Assembly (NCBI RefSeq): GCF_004010195.1
Contig: NC_057751.1
Coordinates: forward strand, 18,197,325-18,261,324
Length of the DNA stretch: 64,000 bases
Direction of reading: 5' to 3'
Origin: Chiloscyllium plagiosum
Lineage: Eukaryota
Below the pieces are notes generated by a model, which saw only the letters and a program-made list of their open reading frames with translations, did no database searches and was not told where the DNA came from. A program made the position numbers and the translations under genes. Shown piece by piece: positions 7,831 to 57,775 of the stretch (position 1 is its first letter; every line of letters begins with the position of its first letter).

Positions 7831-8429
7831 ATGAGTATGATTCAATGCACTGAATTCTACAAAGTAGATTGTTAAAAAGATCTACCAGGAACATCAATAG
7901 TGGCGAGAATAGTGTTGTATAATTTAGCGAACATTTGCCTAGGAAGATGCACTTTTTAAAAAGAAATTCTGAAACAATATCTGCCTTCCTGCTGCAGGCA
8001 ATCCCTCAGAATTGGAGAATTTTAGCGGAATTGTTGACGAAACAGGTCAGAGAGGATACTTTATGTTGTGTGTTAACTCCAATAGGAACCTTTGATTTTA
8101 TTGTAATTTTTATTTTGAATTAAGCAAAAAAATATAAAAGTAACGCCAGGTTTTTACTTATAGTGTGGTGTGTCACATTTAGGTTTAAATTAGTATTTGA
8201 ATACCCCACGGAAACGAGTATCCTGATCCTGATCCTCAAATGTTAATTGCAGTTTGTCTCCAAGCAGCATCAATTATTACATATGTCCAGCTCCTTGAGA
8301 GAGCTTTTTTTTTTGTTGTTACACGCTTAATTTTGCCTTTCTACGTGAGGATTTAACTTTTCCACAAGTTCAATTACTAACGGTTTGAAATTGATCTTGG
8401 AAGCCAAACTTATGGATCAACTCATGATC

Positions 8430-10375
8430 ATCAGTCATTTCAGCTATAATTGATCAGACAGTGGACACAATCAGGAGCGGATAGATTACAAAGCAGATGT
8501 CATTGGATCTGTTAAATTCACTGAGTTACATGAGAGAGATGAAAATTTAAAGCAATTTTATCAAAAGCCATACACAGAAAAATAATCCGAATCTACCTCT
8601 GAAAGTAAGGTTTTCGTGATAAATGGCGGCCATCCCAAGATGTGTAGGTCAGGTGAATTGGCTATGCTAAATTGCCCATAGTGTTAGGTGCGTTTTGTCA
8701 GTGGGAAATGGGTCTGGGTGGGTTGCTTTTTGGAGGGTCGGTGTGGACTCGTTGGGCTGAAGGGCTGTTGACACACTGAAAGGAATCTAATCAAATCTAA
8801 TCTAATCATATCTTCCGGCAGATGAGAACTGGACAGAAGCTCATGAATCGTATTGCCAGGATCTAACAGAAAAGAGATGTTGCGAATAGCGCATGAGCAA
8901 CACCGAGGGGATGTTTTTGGAGTGAGAAAAACTTATGCTAAAGCACAAAAGTAATTTTATTGTCCTGCACTGCCAAGGATGTTGTCCAATTTTCCCAGAT
9001 AAGTCATGTATTTCAGCTCATTGGAAGACCGCAGGCAGTAATAAAACTTGCATCTTCAATACCGATTTCTGCATTTGAGGAACCTTTCTTCAAGATTCTT
9101 AATGATTGTGTGGAATCCCTACCCAAAACAAAATCAGTAATTGTTAGCAATATAGGATTTTTACACTAGATTTCCAGAGGCCTTTCCATTCTGCAATATC
9201 ACAGATAAAAGGATTGTAGAGGACTCAAATATTACATTAGTTATGGACTATCCAGAGAGATACAATGAGATCAAGCGTTAATTTTCACATCGAACATATG
9301 CAAGGAGGTTATATACAGCTTAGGAATAAAACAACTCGAATCTACTACTTACCATCCAGAATTGCAGGGAACGTGAGGAAAGTGATATCAGATATTAAAG
9401 GCCATGTTGAGTGCTGATAGTCAAGATTATCCAGATGATTGGATAATGCAATTGCTTTTGTAGTTTTTGTGATCAGAGTGAATCGACAAAATACAGTCCA
9501 GTTGAATTAGTTTATGGGTAGGAGGTGAGATGACCATTGAATTTGATTCAGAGAAAAATTGTAGGTTGGAATTCAGAGACTATACATGTTTGGATGATGT
9601 GCCAAATATTGGGGAACGATGAAATAGAGCACGGAAAATCACTTGACAGAATTCAAAACTCGCAGAGCACACAATGAATCAGAAAGCAGACATGAAGTTA
9701 TAATTAGAACAAGCATTTATCAGATTTGTTCGATCCACTAAGAAGACAGAATTACTTATAAAACTGTCTGAATGTGAATTTGCCAGAGCCCAAGTTACCA
9801 TCTTGGGCCATCTTGTTGGATATTGACAAATGACTCCAAGGAACGCACATTCAAAGATAATGGGCGAGTTTCCCATAAGATCAACAAAAGGAGCAGTCTT
9901 ACCGCTCCGACGATTGAATGTATTTTCTCAAAGAAACGTAATGGCTTTAGCAGTGTTGTTTCTCCACTTACTGAATTGCTAAACAAAGGCAAGAGCTTTC
10001 AGTGGACAGCGAACTCTCACAAGGCACTTGACAGCCTGAAAGGATTATTAACCACTACTCCAGTATGAGCCACACCTAATGAAGTAAACACATTCAAGAT
10101 GGCTATCGATGGAACTAATACAGGTATCAATGTTGTGCTCTTGCAGGAAGACGAGCAGAAGATAGAAAGACTACGGGGTTTTTCTGCAGGAAATTGAAGT
10201 TCATCTGCAGAAATGTTTGACAGTTGAGCAGTGGACTTTGAGCTTGGTATTGGCGTTACAACTTTGCATCTTTATGTTACCAATAATGCCTCTGAGACAA
10301 TTTTATGTACTGACGATATTCTATTGAAGTTCGTGGAGGAATTTAAGGACTGATATGCCAGACTGCTTGGATGAT
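8430..10375 (+). mobile_element. Gypsy (Gmr1-type) LTR-retrotransposon pol remnant: integrase followed by RT end and RNase H, with an internal deletion
   Basis: Integrase remnants LRIAHE..GVRKT, IPISAFEEPFFKILNDCVESLPKTKS and STTYHPELQG (about 8870-9560) lie upstream of the RT/RH remnants CEFARAQVTILGH, FSSVVSPLTELLNKGKSFQWT and KMAIDG..VVLLQEDE (about 9770-10370). Confidence 0.88.
8638..8807 (+). mobile_element. 5'-truncated HE1-type SINE inserted in the Gmr1 remnant
   Basis: GATGTGTAGGTCAGGTGAATTGGCTATGCTAAATTGCCC ... (AATCT)n, matching the 3' half of 4439-4752. Confidence 0.85.
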
Positions 10376-11693: not shown

Positions 11694-12450
11694 CTACAAT
11701 GTAAAAGCGAACACAGTGGTTGCAGATGCCGAGACTGACCAATAGGTGGCAATAGACACAATCCCACAACGAGAGAACTGAATCACTGCCTTAATCTCAA
11801 AACCGACGAAATCAGACAGAAGAAGACAAAAATTCCAAAAAAATGAAACCAGACGAGTCCAACACATCACACTTCTATGGACTACCAAAATTCACAAATT
11901 AGGAGCGTCCTCCCCACCCCTGACCCAGAGTCTCACTACAGGGAATACTAGTGTACAGACTAGCAAAGGAAATGCAAACAGGTAAAACACTTAATAGAGG
12001 ACTGACGTCACTCCATTCACTCCATCCAAGAATTCTTGAACACCATCAAAAACACCAAGACAGAAGAGTATAAAATAATGATCCACCTCTGACATAACAG
12101 CCCTATTCACATCTATCAACATCAACCTGGCTAAAGAAACAGTGAATACACGATTAGAAGAACCAGAGACACAAAGACCAGACACTGCCAACTCCATAAA
12201 ACAAAGAAAATATCGTCAAAATAGTACATCTATGCCTGCCCACACGCTTCACGTTCATTAACAGGAACCTCATGAAAACCAACGGACCACACATCTGATC
12301 ACCCATTTGAGCGTTCCTAAACGAAGCAGTCACTTTGAGAGTCGAACAAACAGCGAAGGGTACCATCTAACCCAAAAGTTTGGTCTGCTACGTGGGTGAC
12401 ACCTTTATAACCACTAAACGAAACAAAATAGAGGAAATCTTCAAGAGCAT
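11694..12450 (+). mobile_element. Penelope-like element, 5' part (RT), interrupted by a CR1
   Basis: Remnants FYGLPKIHK, DITALFTSININLAKETV and WVCYVGDTF-like, collinear with the minus-strand Penelope at 41262-43477. Confidence 0.85.
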
Positions 12451-14965
12451 AGAACATAGAACAGTAGAGCGCAGAACAGGCCCTTCAGCCCACGATGTTG
12501 TGCCGACCACTGATCCTCATGTATGCACCCTCAAATTTCTGTGACCATATGTATGTCAAGGAGTCTCTTAAATGTCCCCAATGACCCTGCCTCCACAACT
12601 GCTGCTGGCAACGCATTCCATGCTCTCACAACTCTCTGTGTAAAGAACCCGCCTCTGACATCCCCTCTATACTTTCCTCCAACCAGCTTAAAACTATGAC
12701 CCCTCATGTTAGTCATTTCTGNNNNNNNNNNNNNNNNNNNNNNNNNNNNNNNNNNNNNNNNNNNNNNNNNNNNNNNNNNNNNNNNNNNNNNNNNNNNNNN
12801 NNNNNNNNNNNNNNNNNNNNNNNNNNNNNNNNNNNNNNNNNNNNNNNNNNNNNNNNNNNNNNNNNNNNNNNNNNNNNNNNNNNNNNNNNNNNNNNNNNNN
12901 NNNNNNNNNNNNNNNNNNNNNNNNNNNNNNNNNNNNNNNNNNNNNNNNNNNNNNNNNNNNNNNNNNNNNNNNNNNNNNNNNNNNNNNNNNNNNNNNNNNN
13001 NNNNNNNNNNNNNNNNNNNNNNNNNNNNNNNNNNNNNNNNNNNNNNNNNNNNNNNNNNNNNNNNNNNNNNNNNNNNNNNNNNNNNNNNNNNNNNNNNNNN
13101 NNNNNNNNNNNNNNNNNNNNNNNNNNNNNNNNNNNNNNNNNNNNNNNNNNNNNNNNNNNNNNNNNNNNNNNNNNNNNNNNNNNNNNNNNNNNNNNNNNNN
13201 NNNNNNNNNNNNNNNNNNNNNNNNNNNNNNNNNNNNNNNNNNNNNNNNNNNNNNNNNNNNNNNNNNNNNNNNNNNNNNNNNNNNNNNNNNNNNNCTTATC
13301 AAATGCCTTGCTGAAGTCCATATACACCACATCCACAGCTCGACCCTCATCAACGTTTCTAGTCACATCCTCAAATAACTCGATAAGGTTTGTGAGGCAT
13401 GACCTGCCCCTTACAAAGCCGTGTTGACTGCATTTAATCAAGCCATACTCTTCCAGATGGTCATAAATCCTATTCCCAGAATCCTTTCTAACACCTTGCA
13501 GACGACAGACTTACTGGTCTGTAATTGCCGGGAATTTTCCTATTTCCTTTCTTGAAGAGAGGAATTACATTTGCCTCTCTCCAGTCCTCAGGAACCACTC
13601 CAGTGGAGAGCAAGGATGAAAAGATCTTCGCAAGTGGTGAAGCAATTGCATTTCTCGTTTCCCAAAGCAGCCGAGGACACATCTGGCCCGGGCCTGGCGA
13701 CTTGTCAATCTTAATGTTTGACAAAAATTTCAGCACATCAGCTTCCTCTATCTCTATCCATTTCAGCATGTACATCTGCTCTTCAAAGGTTTCATTCACT
13801 GCAAAGTTCGTTTCTTTCGTAAATACAGAAGCAAAAAACTCATTTAGGGCTTCCCCTACCTCCTCAGACTCCACACACAAATTCCCTATGCTATCCCTGA
13901 ACGGGTCTACTCTTTCTTTGACCATTCTCTTATTCCTCACATAAGTGTAAAATGCCTTTGTGTTCTCCCAAATCCGTTCTGCCAAGCCTGTCTCGTGCCC
14001 CCTCCTGGTTCTCCTCAGACCATGTTTAACACCTTCCTTGCCTGCCTGTAATCCTGTAGAGCTGAGCTTGACCCTCGCTTCCTCCACCTTACGAAAGCTA
14101 CCTTTTTCCTTTTGACGATCCTTGCCTGCCTGTAATCCTGTGGAGCTGAGCTTGACCCTAGCTTCTTCTACCTTACGAAAGCTACCTTTTTCCTTTTGAC
14201 GAGAAGCTCCACCGCCCTCGTCATCCAAGGTTCCTTTATCTTACCCCTTCTTGCCTGTCTCAGAGGGACATATTTATTCATCACTTAAACAACTGTTCCT
14301 TAAACAGTCTCCACATGTCTATAGTGCCTTTACCATGGAACAACTGCTTCCAATCCATGCTTTCTAACTCATGTCTAATCGCATCATAGTTTCCTCTTCC
14401 CCAATTAAAAATCCTCCCATTTTGCCTAATCCTCTCCTTCTCCATAGCTTTGTAGAATGTGAGGCAGTTGTGGTCACTATCACCAAAATGCTGTCCCACC
14501 ACAAGATCTGATACCTGCCCCGGCTCATTGCCAAGCACCAAGTCAAAATGGCCTCTCCCCTCGTCGGCCTGTCAGCGTACTGAGTTAGGAAACCCTCCTG
14601 AACACAACTTACAAAAACAGCTTCATTCAAATCTTCTGCTCGAAGGAGTTTCCAATCAATATTGGGAAAGTTAAAGTCACCCATTACAACAACCCGACTA
14701 CGTCCACACTTTTCCAAAATCTGCCGACTTATGTTTTCTTCCATCTCTCTGCTGCTATTGGGGTGCCTGTAGTAAACCCCTAAAGAGGTGACTGCTCCCT
14801 TGCTGTTCCTAATTTCCACCCATACTGACTCGGTAGGCAGATCTTCCTCAACAATGGAAGCTTCTGTAGCTGTGAGGCCCTCTCTGATTAGTAGTGCTAC
14901 AGCCCCTCCTCTTTTTCCCAACCTCCCTATTCTTTTTAAATTCTCTAAACCCTGGAACATCCAGC
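12451..14965 (-). mobile_element. Relatively young 5'-truncated CR1 LINE (EN, tether, RT, 3' tail) spanning an assembly gap
   Basis: ORFs with GKRGGAVALLI, SVWVEIRN, VVVMGDFNFPNIDW, KSPGP, VPEDWREANVIPLFKKG, QHGFVRGRSCLTNLIE and DFSKAFDK; 3' tail (GTTCTAT)n at 12451-12461. Confidence 0.95.
12722..13294. other. Assembly gap (573 N)
   Basis: Run of N inside the CR1 RT region. Confidence 1.
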
Positions 14966-16165
14966 AACCATCCAGCAAGAAGATCAATAATATCCCTACT
15001 GGCATAGCATTCACGAAAGTGGAAGAAAACAGCAGCGAACTACCATTCCTGGATGTCACAATAGCGCAGTCAGTAGGAAATTTCAAACCAGTTTCTCCTA
15101 AAAAAATAACGCATATGTACCAAATATTGAACTGCAGAAGCAATCATCCAAACAGTTACAAGCGACGCTGCATTAGGTCATTAGTTCAACAAGCCACCAT
15201 ACACTGCGAAGAGTATTAAAAAAAACACTTATACAGGCAAACAATACCACAATCCACCAATTTCTAGCAGAAAATACAAAGAAGAAAACAAAACGAGCCC
15301 AGAAGCCCTAAACACTTTTCCCTACAACAAAGACATCTCTGAGATGATTGCCATACTACTCAGAACTCTTGGAATCATGTTAGCCCACAAATCCGCCAAA
15401 TTACAGGTAATGAATTTCTAAAGACCCGAATCAGACAACAAGCAAAATGAACGTCATTTACAAAACACCTTAAAAGGACTGCCAAAAAACCCCACTGCAT
15501 TAGACACACAGGCAGAAAACTAGCCACCAGGACACATTAACGTCAACTAGTCACAAAAAGGCATGACCCACTATCACTAATATCCATACTACACATAAGG
15601 ACACCACTTTACTTCGACACCACATCCATCCTAGGACAAGCCAAACAGAGACCCAGAGCGCCAGAGACCCGGGTTCAATTCCCGCCTCAGGCGACTGACT
15701 GTGTGGAGTTTGCACGTTCTCCCCGTGTCTGCGTGGGTTTCCTCCGGGTGCTCCGGTTTCCTCCCACAGTCCAAAAATGTGCAGGTTAGGTCAATTGGCC
15801 ATGCTAAATTGCCTGTAGTGTTAGGTAAGGGGTAAATGTAGGGGTATGGGTGGTTACGCTTCTGCGGGTCGGTGTGGACTTGTTGGGCCGAAGGGCCTGT
15901 TTCCACACTGTAATGTAATCTAATATAATCTAATCTAATCATTGCACTCCAACTGTAACTCTATCAAAAACACATTACTTTACAACTCATTTGACTTCCA
16001 CTGATAAAAAGAACCATAAATGACAGCACCAACACTCAATGAAGCGTAAACACAGAAATTAGAAGTGGGACATAACACCAGTGCTTCCTGGGCGGCTCAA
16101 TGAAAAAGGTACCTCGTAATGTGACAAAACATCTGAAACCGAACCTTCCAACTCAGCGAGCAATG
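14966..16165 (+). mobile_element. Penelope-like element, 3' part (RT end, GIY-YIG, 3' end with decayed hammerhead motif)
   Basis: INNIPTGIAFTKVEENSSELPFLDVTI and LNCRSNHPNSYKRRCIRSL continue the frame broken at 12450. GIY-YIG remnant NVIYKTP..GRKLATR. The 3' end resembles the reverse complement of 41265-41350. Confidence 0.85.
15657..15940 (+). mobile_element. HE1-type SINE lacking its A box, inserted in the Penelope element
   Basis: Nearly identical to 4479-4752 (B box GGTTCAATTCC, V-domain, (AATCT)n tail). Confidence 0.93.
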
Positions 16166-27944: not shown

Positions 27945-30020
27945 TTCACAAAGGTAACATGAGTGTACTTAAGAGGGAAATCAGGCGGGCAAAAAGAGGA
28001 CATGAAATATCTTTGGCAAATAGGGTTAAGGAGAATCCAAAGGGTTTTTACAAATGCATTAAGGACGAAAAGGTAACTATGGCCGCTGAAAGATCAGCAA
28101 GGACGCCTTTGTATGGTGCCGCAGAAGAAGGGGGTCGGGGATACTGGGCGTGTATCTTGCATCAGTGTTTACTGTGCAGAAAGACATGGAAGATAAAGCA
28201 TGTCGGGAAATGGATGGTGATATCTTGAAAAAATGTCCATATTTAAGAGGACGAGGTGCTGGAAACACGTGAACTTTGATAAATTCTCAGAATATGATCA
28301 GGGTAAACCCGAGAATCTGGAAAACTAGGGAAGTGATTTCTGGGCCTCTTACTGAGATATTTGTATTATTGATCGTCACATGTGAGTTACCGGATGACTG
28401 GAGATTGCTAAACATGCTGCCACCATTTAACATAGGTGGTATGGACATGCCAGAGAACTAAAGACCGGTGAGCCTGACGTTGATTGGTGGGTAAGTTGTT
28501 AGAGGGAATTCTGAGGGACAGAATTGACACGTATTTGGAAATGTGAGGACTAATTAATGATACTCAATATGACTTTGTTTGTGGGAAATCATGTCTGACG
28601 AAATTGTCTGAGTTTATTGAAGAAGTAACAAAGAGCTGAAAATGTGTTGCTGGAACAGCGCAGCAGGTCAGGCAGCATCCAGGGATCAGGAGAATCGACG
28701 TTTCGGGCATAAGCCCTTCTTCAGGGCTTATGCCCGAAACGTCGATTCCCCTGATCCCTGGATGCTGCAGATCTCCAGCATCTGCAGGCCTCACTTTCTC
28801 CTCGAAGTAACAAAGAGGACTGATGACAGCCGATATGTAGATGTGATCGATATGGATTTCAGTAAGACGTTCGAAATAGTTCCTTATTGGGATACAGGTT
28901 AGCAAGGTTACATCACATCCAATATAAGGATAATTAGTCATATGGATACAGAACCGACTCGAAGGTAGAAAACAGAAGACCATGGTGTGTGGTCGTTTTT
29001 CAGACTGTAGGCCTGTGACCAGTGGAGTGCCACAAGGTTCGGTGCTAGGTCCACTACTTTTCATCGTTTAAAAAATTATTTGCCTGCGAACATAGGAGGT
29101 ATAGTGAGCAAGTTCGTAGATGAGGTGCAATGGACAGCGAAGAAGGTTATCTCAGATTACAACGCGATCTTGATCAGATAGGACAATGGACTGAGGAGTA
29201 GCAGATGACATTTGCTTTCATTAAATGTGAGGTGCAGCGTTTTGCAAAAGCAAATCAGAGCAGGACCTATTCACATAATGGTAAGGTCCTACGGAGTGTT
29301 GCCAGACAAAGAGACAAAGAGACTTTCATAGCTCCTTAAAAATGGAATCGCGAGCAGATAGGGGACTGAGGAAGGAGTTTAGTGTGCTTTCCCTTTTTGG
29401 TCAGAGTATTGAGTACAGGACTTGGGAGGTCATGTGCGGATGTACCCAGGACGTTTGTTCTGCCATTTGTGGAATATTGCATGCAATTCTGGTCTTCTTC
29501 CTATCGGAAAGATGTTGTGAAACTTGAACGGGTTAAGAAAAGAGTTACAAGGATGTTTTCAGTGTTGGAGGATTTGAACTGCCGGGAGAAGTTGAATAGT
29601 TTGGGGTGTTTTCCCTGGAACGTCGGAGGCTGAGGGGTGACCTTATAAAGGTTAATAAAATGATGAGGGGAATAGACAGGGTAAAACAAAAACAAAGTCT
29701 GTTCCCTGGAGTGGGGGAATTCAAGAACAAGAGTTTATGGGTTTAGGGTGAGAGGGAAAAGATTTAGAAGAGCCCTAATAACATTTTGACGCAAAGGGTG
29801 GAAAACGTATGGAATAAGTTGCTAGAAGAAGTGGTGGAGGGTAGTACCTTTGCAAAATTTAGAAGGCATCTGGATGGGTAGATATATCAGAAGGGTTTGG
29901 AGGGATATGGGCAATGTGCTGCAAAATAAGACTACATTGTGTTAGGATATCTGGTAAGCATGCACAAGTTGGACCGAAAGGTTTGTTTCCGTGCTGTACA
30001 TTTCTATTACTCTATGACTC
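27945..30020 (+). mobile_element. CR1 LINE (tether, RT, 3' tail) containing a Penelope-derived insert
   Basis: LKREIRRAKRGHEISLANRVKENPKGFY, VDVIDMDFSKTFE, SGVPQGSVLGPLLF and EYCMQFWS; tail CTCTATGACT. Confidence 0.92.
28636..28803 (-). mobile_element. 168-bp Penelope-derived palindromic insert carrying a hammerhead core, 14-bp TSD
   Basis: Flanked by GAAGTAACAAAGAG at 28622-28635 and 28804-28817. Contains 46-bp inverted arms (28672-28717 / 28723-28768). The minus strand reads CTGAAGA-A-GGGC-TTAT-GCCC-GAAAC-GTC. Confidence 0.88.
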
Positions 30021-30428
30021 GATAACAGAGAGCAAGTCAGAGGGGACCTGTAGAGAAAGAAGCAACTGCCTATTTTATTTAAATTCCTGCATCTCCTACC
30101 CATTCATACATCAGTTTAGATACATCTTAAATGATGCTATCGTTCCTGCGTCTACCACCAACGCTGGCAAAGCATTTCAGACACCCACCACCCTCTCCGT
30201 ATATCCCCGCTAAACTTCTCCCCTCTCATTTTGACCTGGTGACCATTAGTAATTGACTCCTTCACTCTGGCAAAAAAGTTTCTTGCTATCCACCCTGAGT
30301 ATACCTCTCATGATTTTGTAGGCCTCAATCAGATCCCCAACAACCTTCCTGTTTCCAAACGAAATAATCCATTCTACTCAATTTCCCCTCATACCACACA
30401 CCCTCCGTACCAGGTAACATTCTGGTGA

Positions 30429-30527
30429 GGAAGGCCATTCCTGAAGAAGGGCCTGTGCCCGAAACGTCGAATCTCCTGTTCCCTGGATGCTGCCTGACCT
30501 GCTGTGCTGTTCCAGCAATAAAGTTTC
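30429..30527 (+). mobile_element. 99-bp Penelope-derived insert with an intact hammerhead motif, 13-bp TSD
   Basis: AACATTCTGGTGA at 30416-30428 and 30528-30540. Removing the insert and one TSD restores the CR1 frame (RRFTRML|PG). Confidence 0.9.
30437..30472 (+). ncRNA. Minimal type-I hammerhead ribozyme motif
   Basis: ATTC-CTGAAGA-A-GGGC-CTGT-GCCC-GAAAC-GTC^GAAT: CUGANGA and GAAA boxes, a 4-bp stem II, a palindromic ACGU stem III, a GUC cleavage triplet and stem I ATTC/GAAT. Confidence 0.75.
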
Positions 30528-31222
30528 AACATTCTGGTGAACCTCCTCCACACCCTCCACAATGCATCCACCTCCTTTTTGTAATGTGGCGACCAGAACT
30601 GTACGCAGAAAAGTGACCGAGCCAAACTCTCATACAACTGTAACATGACTTGCCAACATTTTTCCTCAATACCTCGTCCGATGAAGGAAAGCATGCTGTA
30701 TGCCTTCTTGTCAACTCTAATGACCTGCGTTGCCACATTCAGGAACAATGGACCTGAAGATCCAGATCTCTGTGTATATCAATCTTCTCCATGATCTCTC
30801 CATTTCACTGTTATCGCTCTGTAATTGCATCTTGCACAGTGCGTCACCTCACATTCATCCGGATTGAACGCCATCACGATTTGTCTGCACAACTCTTCAA
30901 TCTATCGATATTCTGCTGGATTCACTGACAGCCTCCGTCACTCCAACAATCTTAGTCTCTTCTGCAAATTTGTGAATAAGGCAACCTACACCTTCTTCCT
31001 ATTCATTTATGTATATCACAAACAACAGTGGTCCCAGCACAGATCCCTGTGGAACATCACTGGTTGCAAGACTCCATTTTGAGACGACCTCTTCCAATAC
31101 TACTTACTGTCTCCTTTTGCCCAACCAGTTCTCTATCTATCGCGCTGGAACACTCTGGACCCCATGCAAATTCACCTTCTTCATCAGCCTACCATTGGGA
31201 ACCTTATCAAATGGACTACTGA

Positions 31223-32353
31223 TTAACAAGCTTAGATCTCATGGAAAACAGGGAGATCTAGCTATTTGCATACAGAACTGGCTCAAAGGTAGAAGACGCA
31301 GGGTGGTGGTGGAGGGTTGTTTTCATACTGGAGGTCTGTGACCAGTGGAGTGCCACAATGATTGGTGCTGGGTCCTCTACTTTTTGTCATTTACATAAAT
31401 GATTTGGATGCGAGCATAAGAGGTACAGTTAGTAAGTTTGCAGATGACAGCAAAATTGGAGGTGAAATGGACAGCGAAGAAGGTTCCCTCAGATTACAAC
31501 AGGATCTGGATCAGATGGGCCAATGGGTTGAGAAGTGGCAGATGGAGTTTAATTCAGATAAATGCGAGGTGCTGCATTTTGGGAAAGCAAATCTTAGCAG
31601 AATTTATACACGTAATGGTAAGGTCCTGGGAAGTGTTGCTGAACAAAGAGAACTTGGACTGCAGGTTTATCGCTCCTTGGAAGTGGATTCGCAGGTAGAT
31701 AGGATAGTGAAGAAGGCGTTTGGTATGCTTTCCTTTATTGTTCAGAGTATTGAGTACAGGAGTTGACAGGTCATGTTGCAGCTGTACAGGACATTGGTTA
31801 AGCCACTGTTTGAATATTGCGTGCAATTCTGGTCTCCTTCCTTTCAGAAAAATGTTGTGAAACTTCAAAAGGTTCAGAAAAGATTTACGAGGATATTGCT
31901 AGGGTTGGAGGATTTGAGCTACAGGGAGAGGTTTAACAGGCTGGGGCTGTTTTCCCTGGAGCGTTGAAGGCTGAGGGGCGACCTTATAGCGGTTTGCAAA
32001 ATTATGAGGGTAGGTTAAATAGGCAAAGTCTTTTCCCTGGGTTTGGGGAGTCCAGGACTAGAAGGCATAGGTTTAGGGTGAGAGGGAAAAGATTTTAAAG
32101 AGACCTAAGGAACAGCTTTTTCGCGCAGAGGGTGGTACGTGTATGGAATGAGCTGCCGGAGGAAGTAGTGGAGGCTGGTACAATTGCAACATTGAAGAGG
32201 CATTTGGATGAGTATATGAATAGGAAGAGTTTGGAGGGATATGGGTCAGTTGCTAGCAGATGGGACTAGATTGGGTTGGTATATCTGGTCGCCATGGACG
32301 GGTTGGACCAATGGGTCTGTTTCCATGCTGTACATCTCTATGACTTTATGACT
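31223..32353 (+). mobile_element. Well-preserved 5'-truncated CR1 (RT C-terminal half + tail) nested antisense in another CR1
   Basis: VLGPLLFVIYINDLD..VSKFADDSKIGG and LYRTLVKPLFEYCVQFWSP; tail CTCTATGACTTTATGACT. Confidence 0.95.
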
Positions 32354-32599: not shown

Positions 32600-32690
32600 T
32601 CCAGTCCCGATGACGGGTTTTTGCCCAAAACGTCGACTTTCCTGCTCTTCGGATGCTGACTGACCGGCTGTGATTCTCCAGCACTACCCC
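32600..32690 (+). mobile_element. Penelope-derived short element with a mutated hammerhead core
   Basis: AGTC-CCGATGA-C-GGGT-TTTT-GCCC-AAAAC-GTC-GACT followed by the same CCTGCTC..GGATGCTG..TGACC..CTG..TCCAGCA tail as 30429-30527. Confidence 0.75.
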
Positions 32691-34199
32691 TCCTCTCTCA
32701 GTTCCGCTGACGACAGGCTCACAGGTCTGTAATTACCTGGATTATCACTGCTTCCCTTCTTTAACAAGGGGACAACATTAGCAATTCTCCAGACTCTGTT
32801 TTCAAGGATGCTGCAAATATATCTGTTAAAGCTCAACTATTTCCTCTCCTGCTTTCCTTATTCACCTGGGATAGATCACATCTGGAACTCGCCACCACGT
32901 CTTTTCAAACTGTACCTCCTCGTGGCGTTATTTCTTCTTCATTATTGAAAGTGAAAATGTCAGAAACATGAAATAAAAACAAAAATTACGAAAACACTCA
33001 TAAATTCAGAAAATACCCGAAGACAGAGTGCAGAGGTGTCCCTTCAGTATCTGCTCCACCAATCAAAACCTGAAACTGTGGAGGAATTTAAGGAATAAAA
33101 TTACTGCTGATAAAAGATTATTGTTTAACATTATTGCAAATTGAATGTAGAACAGGACAAGAAGTCTAGTGGACTGTGGTAAATAGAAAGGACAAGAACA
33201 AAGATGCTCACAGAAATGGTAGAACAGGAAACAATTACTGAAAGGATTTGTTGAATATGATAATGACCAATAATCCAAATTTATCCCCAGTTCCCTATCT
33301 CCCCCACCGTGTCCTTTGCTTCCTTCAGTAGCTGGCAATACTCCTGCCTCCTTCGTGAAAACAATCAATGTACTGACCTCAGGTACTTAATCTGGTAGAG
33401 AATTCTATAGCCTCATCATTCACTGGGTGAATGTCATCTGTTTAGCCCTGATTGCACACTCCAAATCCTTAATCTCTAATTCCATAGTCCTGAGCTCTAG
33501 TCATCAGGAACATCCTTCGGATATTTAGCCTATCTAGTTCTATGCGTATTGAAAGGAAGCAAACTCAAAAAAAGATAGAGTCTATAGGCAATTAAGCAGG
33601 AGTGTTTGTATGTGATAGTGACAAAGACTCAATGAAAGTAGAAGTGAGTGATTGTGAGGAACTGAGAATATACGTTTGAGTGGAAATGTTGGGAGAACAA
33701 GACTGCAAGTAATTGCGAGAAAAAAAGTTTGTGACAGTGTGAAACGTCAGTGATTGCAGGAGAGAAAAAAATGTGTGACAGCTTTTGTGAGTGTGCAAAT
33801 ATACGCGACTGTGTTCCACTGTATCTACTTTCTGCGCTTGTTCTCTGAAAGAAAGTTTTAATAACTTCGAGGGAACTGCATAATTTGTGCGAAGAAAAAT
33901 TGCAGTTATTGGCATGGGACTAATTGTTAGGACTCGCTAGATGAATATACACACTGACGCCAGCACTTCGGGTATCTGCCCTTGAAGTAGTTGATTGGAG
34001 AGTACAGCAAAGACTGATTCCTGGCAATATTGGGTGCCGCACTTGGCCTGTCAGATTTTAATGGGTAATGGAGTAATGTTTTAAATGATTACCCATTGGT
34101 TTGATTGTCCCAGGAATGTCTCATATGCCACTTTGACTATTAAAACTGCGTTCACACATCCTGGGAATACATGACCCAGAAAAGGGGCATGCTTAAATC

Positions 34200-39349: not shown

Positions 39350-41096
39350 CCACTTCCCCACTTAGGAAAAAACTGAACCATCATGACCAAAAGATGGCTT
39401 CACTTTTGTTTTTCTATTCAGTAACCTCATTACCATGACATACATATGACTTTAATGTCAGTTCATATTATTTTCTCCCCCATTTAAACAACATTGAGTA
39501 GATATGAATTTCACCTATACTTCAACAGTTAAATTCACGATAACACATCTATTACATTTTTACGACCCGCAACATGTACGATTTGTAAATTAAAAGTCTG
39601 TAGCATAAGACTCCAACTAAATAGTCTCATGTTCTTGTCTTTAAACCGTTCCAAAAATGTAAGAGGTTTGTGATTCATGCACACACTGTCTCTGATACGT
39701 TAAAATGTTGTAAAGCCAGTACCAAACTCAACAGATCTTTTTCGATCGTACAGTATGTTCTGTGAGAGGTGTTGAGTTTATTTGAAAAGTTACCAAGTGG
39801 CAGTACAATTACATCATCATCTTCATGGAGCAGTATAGATTCACCTTCTATGTTACTCACATTGATGGCAACGTTTGAGGATTTCAAAATGTTTGATGTG
39901 GTTAAACTGGAACGATGGTTAATATTGCTTTTACATTGTCAAAAAACTTCTGGTTTTGTTCTATCCAGCTAAATGTTGTGTTCTTCTTCAGCAAATCTGT
40001 GAATGGTGCCACTACACTGCTGAAGTTTGGTGCAAATTTCCAATAGAGTCCAGTTAGTCCCAAAGATCAAAGCACCTCTTTCTTCGGGGTTGGTCGTGGA
40101 AGTCCCTCGATTGCCTTCAACTTTGCGTTCGGTAGGATCAACTTTCTATGATCCATATTATATCCCATGAACTTTCATGAATTCAGTTTTGTTTAAGTTT
40201 TTCCCTGGTTCGCTTCTCTTCATCGGTCAAAGAGTATTCCCAGCCGTATGGTGTGATCTTCTGAGGACTCACGAAAGATCACAAGATCGTCCAAATATAC
40301 TGCAGAGCTTTTTAATCTAGTCACAATTCTGTTCATCCATGAATCTTTGGAACGTGATGGGTGAGTTCTTCATTCCAAAGGACATTGTTTTGAATTGATA
40401 TTTCCTATTTGGGGTTACAAATGCAAAAATTTATTTCGTCTTCTGTGATATAAGTACCTGCCAAAAACCTGCCATGCATTAAGTCGAACTCGCTGCTGTA
40501 GCTGGTTTGTCCAAATTTCTCTATGCAGTCCTGTAATCTCGGCATTGGGTATGAGCCAGATTTTTTTTTGTGTGGGTTTGTCCTTCTAATATTTCATGCA
40601 AAATCGTTGAGTGCTATCATGTTTTGGCAGTAAGACGACTGGCGAACTCCTCTCACTCTGACTCGGTTCGGTAATATCTTAATTGAGCATGGCCTCCACG
40701 TCGTTCTGGAACTGCCTAGCATTGAATGAAATAAGATGAGAAGGGTGTTGTTTTATCAGAACAACACTCTACGTCTACCTCATGCAAAGTAGCATTACTC
40801 CTCCCGTCTTATTTTTGTTTATGTCCTCATGCTGCTGTAAAAAACCTTTCAATTGCGCTCCTCAGACAGATAGTTTACTAATCTATCCCACTCCTCAAGG
40901 ACATCCTCATTGTTTAACCAAGAATTTGGTTTTGAAGGGTATCAAATTCCACAACATCTGAATTTGATTCCTCACTCTGTGGCACTGTAACTAACTCCTG
41001 TTTCTCTAGTTCCTGCTCCCTGTTATAGTAAGGTTTCAAAATATTCACACGACATGTCAAATACAGATTATTTCCTATCTGGCATCTTTACCAGAT
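39350..41096 (-). mobile_element. Gypsy (Gmr1-type) pol remnant: integrase C-terminus, then RT, then RNase H
   Basis: Minus-strand order: YLVKMPDRK..VNILKPYY (integrase C-terminal module, about 41090-41020); IKQHP..EPSQSERSSPVVLLPK; AVYLDDLVIF (YLDD at 40297-40286); NVAINVS..YCTIEKDLLSLVLALQHF (RNase H). Confidence 0.9.
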
Positions 41097-41261
41097 AAAA
41101 GCAAATTACTGCAGATGCTGGAAACTGAAACCAAAAAGAGAAATGCTGGAAAATCACAGCAGGTCTGGCAGCATCTGTACGGAGAGAAAAGAACTGAAGT
41201 TTCGAGTCTAGCTGACAATTGTCAAAGCTAAAAAAAAAGGGAGAAATGGGGAGTTATTTAT
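41097..41261 (-). mobile_element. Penelope-like family B, 3' terminus (host of the family A insertion)
   Basis: The reverse complement has the hammerhead-like AGCT-TTGACAA..GACTC-GAAAC-TTC-AGTT followed by the CAGATGCTGCCAGACCTGCTG..TCCAGCA tail. The element resumes at 43478. Confidence 0.7.
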
Positions 41262-43477
41262 GGGATGTAGGTTTGCTTGTTGAGCTGTAGGTTTGATATC
41301 CTGACGTTTCATTACCTGGCTAGGAAACATCATCAGTAGCGATCTCCAAGTGAAGCGAAGCTGTTGTCTCCTGCTTTCTATTTCTACGTTTGTCCGAGAT
41401 GGGGTTCCTGGAGTTTGTGGTGATGTCATTTCCTGTTTGTTTTCTGAGGGGTTGACAGATGGTATCTATATCTGTCTGTTTGTTTATGGCGTTGTGTCTG
41501 GAGTGCCAGGCATCTAGAAATTCTCTGGCATGTCTTTGCTTAGTCTGTATCCGGATAGATGTGTTGTCCCAGTCGAATTGGTGGGGTTTTTTTATCCGTG
41601 TGTCGGGCTACGAGGGAGAGAGGGTCATGTCTTTTTGTGGCTAGCTGCTGTTTGTGCATCCTGGTGGCTAACGTTCTTCCTGTTTGTCCTTCGTAGTGTT
41701 TGCGGCAGTCCTTGCATGGAATTTTGTAGATGACGCTGGTCTTGTCCATGGGTTGTACTGGGTCTTTTAAGTTTGTTAGTTTTTGTTTGGAAGTGTTGGG
41801 GTTGTGTGCTACTAGGATTCTGAGGGGTCTTAGTAGTCTGGCTGTCATTTCTGACACTTCTTTGATGTATGGTTAGGTGGTTAGGGTTTCTGGCTGTGTT
41901 TGGTCTGCTTGTCGTGGTTTGTTCTTGAGGAATCTGCGGGCTGTATTTTTTGAGTATCCGTTCTTCTTGAATAAATTGTCTAGGTGGTTCTCCTCTGTTT
42001 TCCGAAGTTCGTATGTGCTGCAGTGTGTGGTGGCTCGTTGGAATTGTTCTGATACAGCTTCGTTTGTGTGTGTTGGGATGGTTGCTGGTGCAGTTAAGTG
42101 TTTGGTCAGGGTTTGTCGGTTTTCTGTATACGCAGGTTTGTAGTTCTCCATTGTCCTTTCTTTCGACTATGACGTCCAGGAATGCGAGTTCGTTGTCGGT
42201 TTCTTCCTCCTTGGTGAACTTTATGCCTGTGAGGGTGTTGTTGATGATGTTAAATGTCTCTTCTATCTTGTTTCGTTTTGTGATGACATCTACGTAGCGG
42301 ACCCAGATGTTTGGTTTGATGGTTGGCAGGGCTGTTTGTTGTAGTCTTTGCATTATCGCTTCTGAAATGAATCCTGATAGCGGCAATCCCATGGGTGTGC
42401 CATTGGTTTGTTTGTAGATTGTGTTGTTAAAGGTGAAGTGGGTGGTGAGGCACAGGTCCACTAGCTTCATAATGTTTTCGTTGGTAATGTGATTGATGGC
42501 GGTTGGGGTGTGTGTGATGGTCTCTTCTAATATTGTGGTAAGTGTTTCCTTTGCCAATCGATGTTGATGGAGGTGAACAGTGCTGTTATGTCGAATGAGA
42601 TCATTGTTTTGTCTTCCTCTATTTTGGTGTTTTTGATGATTTTTATGATTCCTGGGTGGAGTGGATGGAGTGCTGTGACTCTTCTACGAGGTATTTCTGT
42701 CTTGCGTGTAGTTCTTTGACCAGTCTGTAAGTTGGTGTTCCGGGTAGTGAGATTATGAGTCTGAGGGGGGCTCCTGGTTTATGGATTTTTGGTAGTCCGT
42801 AGAATCGTGGGGTGTTGGTCCCATCTGGTTGCATTTTCTGGAATTCTGTCTCGGTTAATTGTCCGAAATTGTTTAATTTTGTTCGGAGATATGTAAATGT
42901 GTTTCCTAGTTGGATCGGGTAAGCGCCACCTGTTGATAGGTGTTGGTGTCTGCGAGTAGTGCATTGGCTTTCCTTATGTGGTCCCTTCTGTTCAGGATGA
43001 CTGTGAGCCGACCCTTGTCTGCAGGTAATATAACGATGTTTTTGTCGTTTTTGAGGTTTTCTTGTTTGTTCAGATTGTTTCCTACCCGCTTTCGGCTCAG
43101 AGTAGGTGCAAATGTCGGTCTGATCGTTTGCTGTGTTTCTTCCATGAGTTTGTTGTCCTTCAATGTGTTTTCTAATGCCGCTAGGAAATCCTTCTTGTCA
43201 GCGTCTCGGTAATTGAAATTTAGTCCTTTTACTAGTACCGCTTTTTCTGTGTCTGATAGGGTTCGGTCTGATAAGTTCTTTATCCATGTTAACCATTTTG
43301 TCTTTGTTTGTGAGTTTGTCAAGTTTTTTCTTCAGGTCCCCATTTTTCTTTATCTGTTTTTGTCGTTGTTTGGTGTTTATGGCTCGTTCTACCGCATTTG
43401 TCCATTCTTGCTTTATTGCTTGTCTGAATAATGGTTTTTGGCACGCAATTTCCCCATTGTATTTTCGGAGTCTGTGG
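41262..43477 (-). mobile_element. Penelope-like element family A (RT + GIY-YIG), nearly complete ORF, frameshifted
   Basis: WIKNLSDRTLS..VLVKGLNF, ILPADKGRLTVILNR, PRFYGLPKIHKPG, YKQTNGTPMG, WVRYVDV, LAFLDV and VYRKPT; GIY-YIG VIYKIPCKDCRKHYEGQTGR. Flanked by TATTTAT at 41255-41261 and 43478-43484. Confidence 0.95.
41303..41336 (-). ncRNA. Hammerhead ribozyme core at the Penelope family A 3' end (stem I decayed)
   Basis: The minus strand reads CTGATGA-T-GTTTCCT-AGCC-AGGTAAT-GAAAC-GTC. Confidence 0.6.
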
Positions 43478-44157
43478 TATTTATACTAGGCTGAGAGAAG
43501 GTGAGTCGTGACTCCAGAAGCAAAGGTAGCAATAAAGAGGTGATAATGACAGTGCATAGAGAGATTATAGGGAGATTAGGAGCTGTGAATGACCAAGGCT
43601 GAAGCCAGTGCTATGTGACAAAATATGTAGGGGATGCGTGAAGCAGAGGCAAAATGGAAAACAGGGGAGAAAGGTAGCAAAGGGGGAAGAGGAGAGGAAA
43701 AATGTGATGAAACAGTGGGGAGCGAGAGAAAGAGAGACAATCAAGAAATAAGAGGTACAGAACAGTGACAAAATATAAAAAGATAAATGAAATAAATAAG
43801 ATAAAATAACTGAGCAGAATGAAAACAGAGCGGTCGAGATGGGATAACCATCTGAAGTTGTTGAATTCAGTGTTGAGACCGGGAGGCTGTAACATGCCTA
43901 GTCGGAAGATGAGATGCTGCTATTTCTGTTTGCATAGAGCCTCACTGGAATAATGCAGCAGGCCAAGGACTGATATGTCCCAGACATTCTTTCTATTTGG
44001 GCTATTGCATTCGTTGCTCCCATTGTCTCCTCGATATCGGAGAGACAAAACGCTGACTGGGTGATCGTTTTGCTGAGCACCTTTGGTCTGTACGCAATGA
44101 GGTCCCGGACCTGTCCATGGCTTGCCACTTCAACGCACAATCCTGCTCCCACGTCTG
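43478..44157 (-). mobile_element. Penelope-like family B GIY-YIG/3' region with an inverted 5' segment
   Basis: The minus strand 43975-43850 encodes SVLGLLH..QHLIFRLGMLQPPGLNTEFNNFR. The plus strand 43980-44157 encodes the preceding GIY-YIG part GYCIRCSHCLLDIGETKR*LGDRFAEHLWSV..ACHFN..CSH. Confidence 0.82.
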
Positions 44158-44595: not shown

Positions 44596-45224
44596 TGCGG
44601 GCATGGGGCTCCTTCTGTCGCCCTGTATCTGAATGATTTCTCTCTAAGCGGCACCTCTGTAGAATTTCTCAGTTGTACAGTACTTTTTCGTTGGGGTTTG
44701 AGCTGCTTGGTGTAATTATCATTTACAGAATTTCAGCATTGATTCTCACCATGTTGTGTGTTTCCCGCTCCGTGCCCCTGCTGGAGGGTGCCACTGTTCA
44801 GCTGGGTTAATTATGACGCACGTCCACTGGGACACGAATTTAATAGAGTCTGGCTGCCAACCTGCTGGGGTCCGGCTATGATTGTGTTGTTGGGCCTTGA
44901 CGTGGCCCTGAACAAGACAGTCTTGCCATTGAGTACATGGAGGAGGGGAGAGAAAATGCATGATATGGCTTGGGATTGGGAGAGGAGCAATGGTGGTAAG
45001 AGGAGTGGAAGAAGACTTGGGAGGTTTGCAGCCATCGGGGAGGTGTGGAAGGGAAGCATTTGGTGCGGTAGAGAGCAGATATGGGGTAGTGCAAAAGGGA
45101 GAGGTGAGATGTGGCAGTGAAGAATGGTGAGGAAACGTGTCGAGGCAAAATTTGGGAAAGGGAGCGGGAAGATTAAAGACAGGGTGTTGGAGAAAACATT
45201 ATCCATGTGTCCGTGAAGAAATTG

Positions 45225-45575
45225 CAGGTCAAGAAGATGGTGCTGAGTCCGAGGGTTGGGACTGAGATAAGGTGGGGGAGGGGAAATGAAGAAGATGGAG
45301 AAATCTGCATTCATCCCTTGTGGTTGGAGGGTTCCTAGGCGGCCTTCTTCCCGACCTCTCTGCCCCACACCCTCTCCGTCCTATCACCCTCATCTTAACC
45401 TCCTTCCACCTATCGCATTCTCAACGCCCCTCCCCCAAGTCCTTCCTCCCTACCTTTTATCTTAGCCTGCTTGGCACACCCACCTCATTCCTGAAGAAGG
45501 CCCGAAAAGTCGATTCTCCTGCTCCTTGGATGCTGCCTGACCTGCTGCGCTTTTCCAACAACACATTATTCAGCT
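45225..45575. mobile_element. Two Penelope-like 3' fragments in opposite orientation, with a decayed hammerhead at 45487-45515
   Basis: The minus part encodes RLGTLQPQGMNADFS (GIY-YIG C-terminus). The plus part ends ATTC-CTGAAGA-AGGCCC-GAAAA-GTC-GATT followed by the same tail as 30429-30527. Confidence 0.75.
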
Positions 45576-51200: not shown

Positions 51201-53124
51201 CAAAATCACTTGGAATTATCCCCAAGTAACTCTTTATTAAGGAAAGGGGAACATTCCAGTGACAAATGGAAATCAATCGTCTACTCCATTGTAGTCACAG
51301 TCACTGAGCAAACAGCGTCAATTTACTATGCCATTCAAACGCTTATAACATGGTAGTGTCGAACTTCGACTTTACTTATTGTCATACTCTCTTGAACACT
51401 TTTGCTGTTTATATTCATTTCTTAAAAAGTTGACTGTATCCCACTCTTTCCGCTAGCTTACTACCCATCACCTCTCTTCTCTCCTCATAATCTCCACACA
51501 GTTTATTCCTTGGAGTTTAACTCATTTGGTCATCAGGATTTTTCAATTGATTGCTTTGTATCCAGTTCCTATTCCTGCCACTGCCTCAGTTCCGAAAATA
51601 GCCAAAGAATCACTCTCAATGCACCCACCTCTTCCACAGTTGATTGCGATTTAGATAAAAATATCTTCATTATATTGCTCCTCAACTGGATAGTCTCACT
51701 TTCATCCATATGGTACTGCATAAGGCTTATGCTTGCCCACTCCACCAACTTGTCCCAATTGCACCGAAGAATAGCTGCGTCCTACTTATAATTCTTCCTT
51801 CTTTGTGCTGTTTGGAAAACTGAGGATATTATTTGTTTACGTCATCTAAATCATTAATGTGTATTGGGAATAGCTGGGCAGCAATGACTCATATGTATGG
51901 TCCCTTCCTGGTCATTAGGAGACACAAGGAAGCTTGAAGTGTTGAATAGACTGATTTAACCTGAGAATGTACCGAAGGGTTTCTTCGAAATACATTTTAA
52001 AGGTCGGAAATAACATATGGCTTCACTGTCCCCAATATCTAATGAAATGGCAGATGTGCGAGTGTTACCATATTGATTTCGATATGAAGGGAAATAGGGA
52101 TCCTGAATGTGATCAATAAGCACTGCTTGAGTTTTGTTGATTTGGACCTGTTTCGAATTGAGTAACAGGCAGCAGTGAGATTGCTAACTCCAGTTTTAAA
52201 ATGTTGGCGATCTGTGAGGCAACGCAGACATCCATTGGAACAATCGAGTCAAGGGAATGCAGTAGAAGGAATGATGTTTTCTGAGACGAGGCTGACACGG
52301 TGATATCGCGAGTGGAGAAAGAAAGTTAGCAGAGGGACACCAGCAGAAGTGGAATTAATTCAGGCTCAGAAACGGGTTTGTCACCGTGAATGTCATTAAA
52401 ATTCACTTAAAAAATAACTGACACGAGCAGTTTTGTTTTCCAACATTGTGTTTTTCCCTACTACACTCTCCCGCTCTCCCCACCTCCAACCCAGCCTGAC
52501 CATCTGTGAGGAGATTAGAGTCGATTTACAGTGGAAGTGGAGAAATGGCTTCTGATCCTGTTTCACTTCCTGCACTGCAGAAGGTATTCTGACTGTCGTC
52601 ATTCCCACTTTACGTTTTGACACTCGAAGGTCAGTTTTGGTGACTTCTCTCCAGCATGTCTGACTCTTCATGTGTTTTTCAGCCCTCAGTTAATATACAG
52701 AGATTGTCAAATTTTGCATTCAACAACATCAAACAATTCAGAGATGATGCAGAAAACGGGGTGGATCGAGTTCATCAACCATGACCTGGTTAATTTAGCA
52801 AAGTGCTCAAAAAGTTGAAATACACACTGCTGTTTATATTTCTTATCGACTTATTTTCATTCTGCTCTCTGTTCTATATTTCCTTTTCACCAGCGTTGCT
52901 GAGTTTTGCCCTACTTTTCAGCAACTTCAGGTCTTCAGAAAGTCACCTCAAGACTTCAATGTTCTGTTGTTTCTAATCCAACAGCTCCTGCCAGTGTTCT
53001 TCTGATTCTCCAGCTTTCCAATTCTTCTAAATGGTTAATATCAATTTTACATTCTTTTCCCTCAACGTGATGCGCTCTGGCGTTGATTCTCGTTTCACTT
53101 TGATCGCTTTTCTTGTCACATTAT

Positions 53125-57455: not shown

Positions 57456-57482
57456 AATGAGAGGCAGAATGACAGTGATATC

Positions 57483-57620: not shown

Positions 57621-57775
57621 AGTAATATCACAAAGTGGGGAGAACTGAAAATAATGGAGATATCACACTAAAAACTGGATAATTAATATTTTAATTAATA
57701 TTGCAGGCAGCATTATTGTTCCTTGGTAACTTTCAAAACTGGGGTAAGATGGAGAGTTAAACATAAGTCACTTAC

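What the first reader, a model, noticed from the sequence alone, without database searches (positions are those of the whole stretch)
30416..30540. A 99-bp mobile unit that is little more than a hammerhead ribozyme, with a perfect 13-bp TSD
Seen: ATTC-CUGAAGA-A-GGGC(CUGU)GCCC-GAAAC-GUC^GAAU has all hammerhead core nucleotides and a paired stem I. It is inserted into a CR1 RT between two copies of AACATTCTGGTGA. Stem III is the loop-less palindrome ACGU. Established: Penelope-like elements carry minimal type-I hammerheads that are thought to cleave as dimers. Inference: this is either an extremely 5'-truncated Penelope copy or a non-autonomous retrozyme-like family mobilised by Penelope RT in sharks.
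Basis: partly seen in the sequence, partly recalled or inferred. Interest (0 to 1): 0.7.

Follow-up and report, generated by a model that had tools for sequence, protein, structure and literature searches.

The report
Penelope retroelement end stub with hammerhead
This is a real, probably recent 99-base insertion, but it is only the ribozyme-bearing tail end of a very abundant Penelope-like jumping gene, a kind of leftover already described in many animals.

Summary
There is a 99-bp insert (30429-30527) between exact 13-bp repeats, inside an antisense CR1 ORF2. It carries a complete minimal type-I hammerhead motif (36 of the 99 nt). One contig from another sample shows the empty site, so the duplication is a true TSD and the insertion is probably young.

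The insert is not a retrozyme. It has one hammerhead, its ends lie 40 and 59 nt from the cut site, and no RNA ends pile up there (weak test). It is the terminal module (pLTR end) of a GIY-YIG Penelope-like family. A sister copy in the window (45220-45575) carries the upstream 3' UTR and the endonuclease C-terminus. Another (28622-28817) shows the classic inverted copy plus tail. RNA reads run on into both UTR and tail.

Likely mechanism: internally initiated target-primed reverse transcription of uncleaved RNA, ending at the hammerhead's 5' edge, probably with a micro-inversion. Solo minimal hammerheads of truncated PLEs were described in 2014. This scan already noted the same kind of element on other pieces of this genome. 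What stays open is whether a short template RNA starts at the hammerhead.

The parts
30416..30428 (.). Left copy of 13-bp target-site duplication; its last 3 nt (TGA) may double as the priming microhomology of the 5' junction
   Evidence: single copy at the empty site in 1 contig of run X1
30429..30435 (+). 7 non-family letters at the 5' junction; probably a micro-inversion of the UTR just upstream of stem I (inference)
   Evidence: Reverse complement of 30426-30434 matches the read-derived upstream consensus at 8 of 9; chance 0.001-0.05 over 10 registers
30436..30527 (+). Terminal module (pLTR end) of a GIY-YIG Penelope-like family, without tail
   Evidence: 91% to 28637-28725, 81-83% to 45486-45572; 22,505 and 15,081 contigs laid on the 301-nt stretch in two runs, with depth concentrated on the module
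30437..30472 (+). Minimal type-I hammerhead motif (4-bp stem I, 4-bp stem II, no helix III loop, ACGU palindrome); predicted cut between 30468 and 30469
   Evidence: matches the features given in PMC4209133; not matched by Rfam
30528..30540 (.). Right copy of the TSD; its first 3 nt (AAC) match a family variant at that position (3' microhomology)
   Evidence: loose-end consensus behind 30518 in X5/X1
30210..31202 (-). Host: decayed CR1 LINE ORF2 and 3' end, interrupted in its C-terminal part
28622..28817 (-). Sister insertion: direct module 28634-28725, inverted partial arm 28723-28768, inverted tail 28770-28802, 14-bp TSD (28622-35/28804-17)
45220..45575 (+). Longer sister copy: inverted GIY-YIG C-terminus and start of UTR (45341 to 45220, minus), then direct 3' UTR (45337-45485) and module (45486-45575, stem II deleted)
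   Evidence: profile E=5.7e-6 for the C-terminus

Best explanation
The insert is a solo terminal module of an endonuclease-bearing Penelope-like retrotransposon (probably Neptune clade), laid down by the family's own RT/GIY-YIG protein in trans or in cis. Inferred steps: the endonuclease nicked the CR1 target on both strands 13 nt apart (TSD shown). RT primed from the nick, with a 3-nt microhomology, at the internal start site 59-62 nt downstream of the hammerhead cut site, the tail-less one of the two PLE start sites. It copied an uncleaved RNA straight through the hammerhead (shown: the cut site is intact and internal to the insert). It stopped at the upstream edge of stem I, where the other target end probably primed a 6-7-nt inverted piece. 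The hammerhead is a passenger: probably inactive as a lone monomer and not what defines the unit's ends.
For: Same module with upstream 3' UTR and GIY-YIG C-terminus at 45220-45575 (relative P0049 has Pfam GIY-YIG, E=0.008, below the gathering cut-off, upstream of the same C-terminal motif). 215 RNA reads run upstream of 30436 into a consensus that matches that UTR, and 200 run behind 30528 into the tail. Inverted arm plus ~33-nt tail plus 14-bp TSD at 28622-28817, and inverted tail at 57589-57619, match the PLE architecture in PMC3846280 and PMC8557442 (passages). PMC11167929 (main text): RT starts internally at two sites, unprocessed RNA is the template, and hammerhead mutants still insert. 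PMC4209133: most min-HHRs are solo motifs attributed to truncated PLEs. Empty site in 1 contig. A second inverted-5' PLE insertion lies at 43851-44152.
Against: No full-length RT-EN copy of this family was seen, because no genome is held; the RT ORF at 41.3-43.5 kb belongs to another PLE family with a different hammerhead. The link to the endonuclease rests on one inverted 20-codon piece that abuts the UTR. 5' ends are not random: 2 of the 3 close window copies stop within 5 nt upstream of the core, and 8 of 12 displayed 'goes back' joints (16 in all) land at 30435-30438 (weak, since the reference allows no landing further upstream and microhomologies exist). That pattern also fits a dedicated short RNA. 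The micro-inversion rests on 8 of 9 letters against a mixed-subfamily consensus.
Confidence: 0.8

Rival explanations
1. A discrete short template: a ~95-130-nt RNA whose 5' end lies about 5-12 nt upstream of the hammerhead core. It could be a SINE-like non-autonomous partner with its own start, or the 5' pLTR of the full-length mRNA copied to run-off. It is mobilised by PLE RT. The insert is then full length, not truncated. The run-off version is compatible with the best explanation and differs only in why synthesis stopped.
For: Focal direct part starts at 30436 and the 28.7k direct arm at the 30440 equivalent. If the 5' letters are an inversion, the copied RNA ends 12 nt upstream of the core, inside the 8-12-nt window reported by earlier finding e1-7858061 (not checked genome-wide by me). 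171 RNA reads diverge before 30437 with low consensus agreement (0.41), as expected of many unrelated flanks. PMC11167929 places the RT start sites inside the ORF start, so a full-length mRNA holds one at its 5' end (inference).
Against: 215 reads and 131+80 contigs continue into the UTR, as does the 45.5k copy. No pile-up of molecule starts among 1934 laid RNA reads (table 6; a polyA single-cell library, so a weak test). Both strands are read at similar depth (700 vs 1012), as for passive read-through.
Confidence: 0.15
2. A non-LTR retrozyme monomer: a circular RNA cut and joined by the hammerhead, reverse-transcribed and inserted as one permuted unit.
For: An insert with an internal intact cut site is what a circle would give. 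One contig in X1 (depth 55.9) shows a head-to-tail joint 30518 to 30435 through part of the tail. bioRxiv 10.64898/2026.07.22.740005 reports tandem retrozymes in its one chondrichthyan and solo monomers derived from them.
Against: Single hammerhead, no tandem at the locus. Minimal rather than canonical motif. GC 0.57 against under 0.5 for metazoan retrozymes (PMC7229834 passages). The 3' end does not continue into the 5' end in the read consensus but into the PLE tail. Partial tandems are normal for PLEs. No ends at the cut site.
Confidence: 0.04
3. Not an insertion event but an assembly or recombination artefact, or a chance motif.
For: The filled allele is not bridged by any of the 16 listed pieces (37,910 not shown).
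Against: Exact TSD (chance about 7e-6), empty site, continuous CR1 frame on removal, 0 of 200 shuffles with the motif.
Confidence: 0.01

Closest known systems
Minimal hammerheads (min-HHR) in pLTRs of metazoan Penelope-like elements, mostly solo motifs of truncated copies (Cervera & De la Pena 2014, PMC4209133)
   Same: Core boxes, extra nucleotide between 9 and 10.1, G10.1-C11.1 pair, palindromic 15.2-16.2, 4-bp helix I, dispersed solo occurrence in very high number
   Different: Helix II is 4 bp, not the 7-8 bp of the Schistosoma families. Shark terms were not found in the 2 of 3 supplement files searched, nor in the text parts read. Copy abundance looks higher than the 4,000-9,000 reported for coelacanth and Xenopus (not counted here).
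Insertion units of EN+ PLEs: pLTR, optional 30-40-nt tail, inverted 5' copy, 8-10-bp TSDs (Arkhipova et al. 2013, PMC3846280; Craig et al. 2021, PMC8557442)
   Same: Terminal module with TSD; sister copies with inverted arm and ~33-nt tail; solo pLTRs
   Different: TSD 13-14 bp here. The focal copy lacks the tail, and its 5' junction looks like a micro-inversion of the type recalled for L1 twin priming (recalled, not read).
Poseidon of Anolis (PAc) in vitro (Frangieh et al. 2024, PMC11167929)
   Same: Hammerhead upstream of internal RT start sites; insert spans an uncut ribozyme; no RNA-seq ends at the cut site
   Different: Start site is ~60 nt, not ~85-90 nt, behind the cut. Relatives of the endonuclease end here have a Cys-rich linker suggesting Neptune rather than Poseidon (1 of 18 hits, P0057; inference).
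Non-LTR retrozymes of animals (Cervera & De la Pena 2020, PMC7229834; Li et al. 2026, bioRxiv 10.64898/2026.07.22.740005)
   Same: Non-coding, type-I hammerhead, dependent on PLE machinery, derived from pLTRs
   Different: Those are tandem repeats with at least two hammerheads, processed to circles. This is a single, TSD-bounded PLE end whose boundaries are not set by the ribozyme.

Membership tests
PLE minimal hammerhead (min-HHR) | All conserved core nucleotides (CUGANGA, GAAA, UH) | tested here: met
   Among the 40 variant rows shown (17 not shown), core positions vary in at most about 2% of DNA contig depth except N7 (6-7%).
PLE minimal hammerhead (min-HHR) | Extra nucleotide between 9 and 10.1, G10.1-C11.1 pair, palindromic 15.2-16.2 with no loop 3 | tested here: met
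   A30448, G30449-C30460, ACGU 30464-67; features
PLE minimal hammerhead (min-HHR) | Short helix I supported by compensatory change | tested here: inconclusive
   One two-sided change (U-A to G-C) between the focal and 32.6k copies (3 sequences only). About two thirds of family depth has a U-U mismatch at that pair (30471 A>T 66-67%).
PLE minimal hammerhead (min-HHR) | Self-cleavage as dimer or with protein help | not testable with these tools
   Nearest-neighbour energy of the modelled dimer is -13.1 against 2 x -7.1 kcal/mol for monomers (non-canonical core not modelled). No RNA ends at the site among 1934 reads (weak).
Rfam hammerhead families | Covariance-model match | tested here: not met
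   No hammerhead family up to E=10 in 29000-32000 or 30400-30560
EN+ Penelope-like element terminal (pLTR) insertion | Module contiguous with 3' UTR and GIY-YIG endonuclease end | tested here: met
   45220-45575, through an inversion junction; UTR also in read loose ends
EN+ Penelope-like element terminal (pLTR) insertion | Optional 30-40-nt tail and inverted 5' copy in family members | tested here: met
   28723-28802 and 57589-57619; tail in direct orientation in 200 RNA reads; opposite-strand joints in 8 reads
EN+ Penelope-like element terminal (pLTR) insertion | Target-site duplication verified against an empty site | tested here: met
   1 contig of X1, depth 3.5; none shown in X5, X21, X22; paralog continuity
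EN+ Penelope-like element terminal (pLTR) insertion | Full-length RT-EN copy of the same family | not testable with these tools
   No genome held; viral and metagenome scans gave no family copy
Non-LTR retrozyme | Tandem repeat with at least two hammerhead-bearing units | tested here: not met
   One hammerhead at the locus, none in tandem in the window. A few tandem-type joints exist elsewhere in the family.
Non-LTR retrozyme | Canonical type-I hammerhead with helix III and loop 1-loop 2 contacts; unit GC under 50% | tested here: not met
   Minimal motif; GC 0.57 over 30420-30517; criteria
Non-LTR retrozyme | Abundant unit-length linear and circular RNA | tested here: inconclusive
   No end pile-up and reads on both strands in one polyA single-cell sample; that library is unsuited to small circles

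The most novel reading that the evidence does not exclude
In this shark-like genome the PLE family multiplies mainly through a ~100-130-nt RNA that begins about 12 nt upstream of the hammerhead core. It is either a self-sufficient SINE-like partner or a run-off product of RT starting at the 5' pLTR of the full-length mRNA. The family is still inserting (empty allele). The focal copy would record that RNA's very 5' end in its micro-inversion, and its perfect stem I subfamily would be the best substrate for testing what the PLE hammerhead does in vivo.
Probability: 0.2. Interest if true: 0.5.

Novelty: new member of a known kind. Interest (0 to 1): 0.2.

Why it matters
As a single copy it matters little: solo hammerhead-bearing PLE ends are described in fish, coelacanth, frog and reptiles. 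Its modest value is as a clean specimen, with an intact motif, a verified TSD and an apparent presence/absence polymorphism that points to recent activity. Its junctions also illustrate in a genome what was shown in vitro for Anolis Poseidon: internal priming on an RNA whose hammerhead was not cut. If a short RNA starting at the hammerhead edge were shown, it would explain why such stubs are so abundant and give a handle on the open question of what PLE hammerheads are for.

Tried and rejected
Whole-genome copy count and 5'-end histogram: impossible, no genome held.

Collection scans: the hammerhead pattern gave 0 loci in metagenome contigs and 0 in viral contigs. A 19-nt downstream pattern gave 48 metagenome loci, all 48 matching over only 19-28 nt, so chance.

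Rfam: no hammerhead match; the weak hits (TeloSII_ncR30, NPPA-AS1_3, mir-3389, snoZ119, gyrA and others) are far below gathering scores.

Sequencing runs: no RNA holder listed. Run X22 laid 0 reads (no test).

Summed contig depth (10^5-10^7 on the module against 1-133 on the left flank) was not converted into a copy number, since the tool says it is none.

A>G letters at 30463, 30464 and 30497 in RNA reads of one strand were considered as A-to-I editing. I did not accept this, because non-A>G variants (30500, 30507) show the same strand bias and counts, as from one expressed diverged copy.

Joints from 30469-71 back to 30436-38 were considered as template jumps onto ribozyme-cut RNA. I did not accept this, because the family repeats ATTC on both stem I strands and slippage explains them.

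Word-indexed protein search with the 43.9k piece found nothing; the full HMMER search found 18 relatives. Pfam did not recognise the window's own endonuclease fragments.

An ATG at 30487 opens a 14-codon frame to the element end; whether it is the PLE ORF start could not be tested.

Literature searches found no paper describing this shark family by sequence. Repbase and Dfam could not be searched, and the supplements of the 2026 preprint and file 1 of PMC4209133 were not seen; any of these may list it.

Full report
Observation. The sequence shows exact 13-bp direct repeats at 30416-30428 and 30528-30540 around 99 bp. The hammerhead motif spans 30437-30472: stem I of 4 bp, CUGAAGA, an extra A, stem II of 4 bp with a 4-nt loop, GAAA, the palindrome ACGU, and a predicted cut after 30468. 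A descriptor of my own found this site alone in the window when a perfect 4-bp stem I was required, against 0 of 200 shuffles. Relaxed versions found 2 and 3 sites, against 5 and 42 of 200 shuffles with at least one. Rfam does not match it. The stretch is not unusually stable (z=+1.17). The 99-nt insert's minimum-energy fold does contain stems I and II, but with pair probabilities of only about 0.15 and 0.6, and in 221 nt of context the best fold differs. The motif is 36 of 99 nt, with 55 nt behind it.

Host site. Removing the insert and one repeat in a script restores a continuous minus-strand CR1 ORF2, with 47% protein identity over 104 residues to the paralog at 56.3-56.7 kb, and 5 paralogs align across the junction. 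The site is 431 nt downstream of the degenerate RT catalytic motif. Of the four runs laid, X1 holds one contig (depth 3.5) that skips exactly 112 nt with 13 letters fitting either side, and a 176-nt contig matches 30528-30630 with one difference. X5, X21 and X22 show no such joint, and no listed piece bridges the filled allele (16 listed, 37,910 not shown). I read this as the orthologous empty site in the same or a closely related species, so a true TSD and probably a young insertion.

Family. The window holds close relatives at 28637-28725 (91%), 28723-28768 (inverted arm, 89%) and 45486-45572 (81-83%). More distant ones lie at 32601-32686, 57494-57569, 41144-41204 and 52951-53026. In public runs 22,505 and 15,081 contigs and 1934 RNA reads were laid, with summed depth of 10^5-10^7 on the module against 1-133 on the left flank (not a copy number). 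Loop II and N7 vary among copies and the core barely does. About two thirds of the family has a U-U mismatch in stem I where the focal copy pairs, and the 32.6k copy has a compensatory G-C there. Identity as a shark genome is inferred: the best hit of the window's PLE RT is a Chiloscyllium protein at 60%.

Link to Penelope-like elements. Upstream of 30436, 215 RNA reads continue into a consensus (agreement 0.69) matching the pyrimidine-rich UTR at 45456-45485. Behind 30528, 200 reads continue into a tail whose reverse complement stands at 28770-28802. At 45.2-45.6 kb the UTR abuts an inverted piece encoding the last ~20 residues of a GIY-YIG domain. A profile of 18 relatives hits it at E=5.7e-6, and one relative carries Pfam GIY-YIG (E=0.008, below cut-off) upstream of the same motif. 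The 28.6-28.8 kb copy has a direct module, an inverted arm, an inverted tail and a 14-bp TSD. This is the arrangement described in PMC3846280 (12 of 14 passages seen) and PMC8557442 (12 passages). No full-length copy of this family was seen. The RT ORF at 41.3-43.5 kb is a different PLE with a different hammerhead. A Cys-rich linker in 1 of the 18 relatives suggests the Neptune clade (inference).

Mechanism. Shown: the TSD, the intact internal cut site (40 nt of insert before it, 59 behind), the 3' end at the tail-less family end, and 7 non-family letters at the 5' end. From PMC11167929 (parts 1-2 of 4, whole main text): a PLE protein nicks both strands and starts RT at two internal sites, which produces the tail; unprocessed RNA is the template; the hammerhead is protein-assisted and dispensable for insertion in vitro; no RNA-seq ends were seen at the cut. 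Inferred here: priming with a 3-nt microhomology at the first start site, copying through the uncut hammerhead, and a stop at stem I. The reverse complement of 30426-30434 matches the upstream consensus at 8 of 9 letters (chance 0.001 over 10 registers, or 0.05 if only the 6 inserted letters count). That fits second-end priming of the L1 twin-priming type (recalled; one search gave only 3 listings, none read). The same geometry appears at 45.2-45.6 kb and 43.85-44.15 kb. If so, the template reached 12 nt upstream of the core. The single C after the inverted letters could be a copied cap, which is speculation.

Against a retrozyme. Retrozymes are tandem units with at least two hammerheads (bioRxiv 10.64898/2026.07.22.740005, parts 1-3 of 5, supplements not seen; PMC7229834, 12 of 31 passages). 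Here there is one minimal motif, GC is 0.57, and the ends are unrelated to the cut. No place showed many molecule ends among 1934 reads, which came from both strands (weak, a polyA single-cell library, about 2% of one run). PMC4209133 (parts 1-2 of 4; 2 of 3 supplement files searched for shark terms, no hit) reports thousands of solo min-HHRs per genome, ascribed to truncated PLEs, with no monomer and low dimer cleavage. In favour of tandem forms, one X1 contig joins the tail region head-to-tail to 30435. PMC6155905 (passages) and PMC6431247 (passages) added background only.

What stays open. 5' ends seem to prefer the hammerhead's upstream edge: 2 of 3 close window copies, 8 of 12 displayed tandem-type joints (4 more not shown; biased by the reference and by microhomology), and 171 reads with heterogeneous upstream flanks. 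Earlier agents of this scan, on other pieces of the same genome, reported about three quarters of copies stopping 8-12 nt upstream of the core (103 notes fit that look-up, 8 shown). I could not check this genome-wide, and I took from them the idea that the copied RNA begins there. A short template, or run-off from the 5' pLTR, gets about 0.15-0.2.

Verdict. Real, correctly read, but a new member of a known kind: a solo, TSD-bounded end of a Penelope-like element with its minimal hammerhead. Interest 0.2.

Noticed in passing
window 28622-28817: Palindromic sister insertion into another CR1: direct module, inverted partial arm and inverted tail, 14-bp TSD; intact hammerhead core but no 5' strand of stem I.
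   Followed up: yes
window 41262-43479 (-): Near-complete decayed PLE of another family (RT 60% to a Chiloscyllium protein), ending in its own hammerhead at 41336-41303 with a long stem II; further fragments of it at 11837-12457 and 14887-15651.
   Followed up: partly
window 43851-44152: PLE endonuclease end split by an inversion: GIY-YIG motif on the plus strand (43988-44152), C-terminus on the minus strand (44006-43851); followed by a UTR with no recognisable hammerhead.
   Followed up: partly
window 57475-57632 (-): Diverged module with inverted tail, damaged hammerhead and a possible 9-bp TSD with one mismatch (read by eye).
   Followed up: partly
window 32601-32700 (+): Diverged subfamily copy with a compensatory G-C pair in stem I but two core mutations; no TSD found.
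   Followed up: partly
window 41095-41215 (-) and 52951-53026 (+): Further short PLE end modules of a related family; the first has its tail in direct orientation and abuts the end of the 41-43 kb PLE.
   Followed up: no
window 30463, 30464, 30497 (RNA run X21): A>G in about 10-12% of reads of one orientation against 0.03-0.9% in DNA contigs; editing of fold-back copies or, more likely, one expressed diverged copy.
   Followed up: partly
window 53125-54129 (-): Intact-looking 334-codon single-exon ORF resembling a 7-transmembrane receptor (weak tblastn to a 7tm_1 protein); the only host-like gene seen in the window.
   Followed up: no
window ~12720-13290: Run of N (assembly gap) inside a CR1 copy.
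   Followed up: no
window 44743-45220: About 480 nt of pyrimidine-rich (minus strand) unassigned sequence next to the 45.2k inversion junction; not identified.
   Followed up: no
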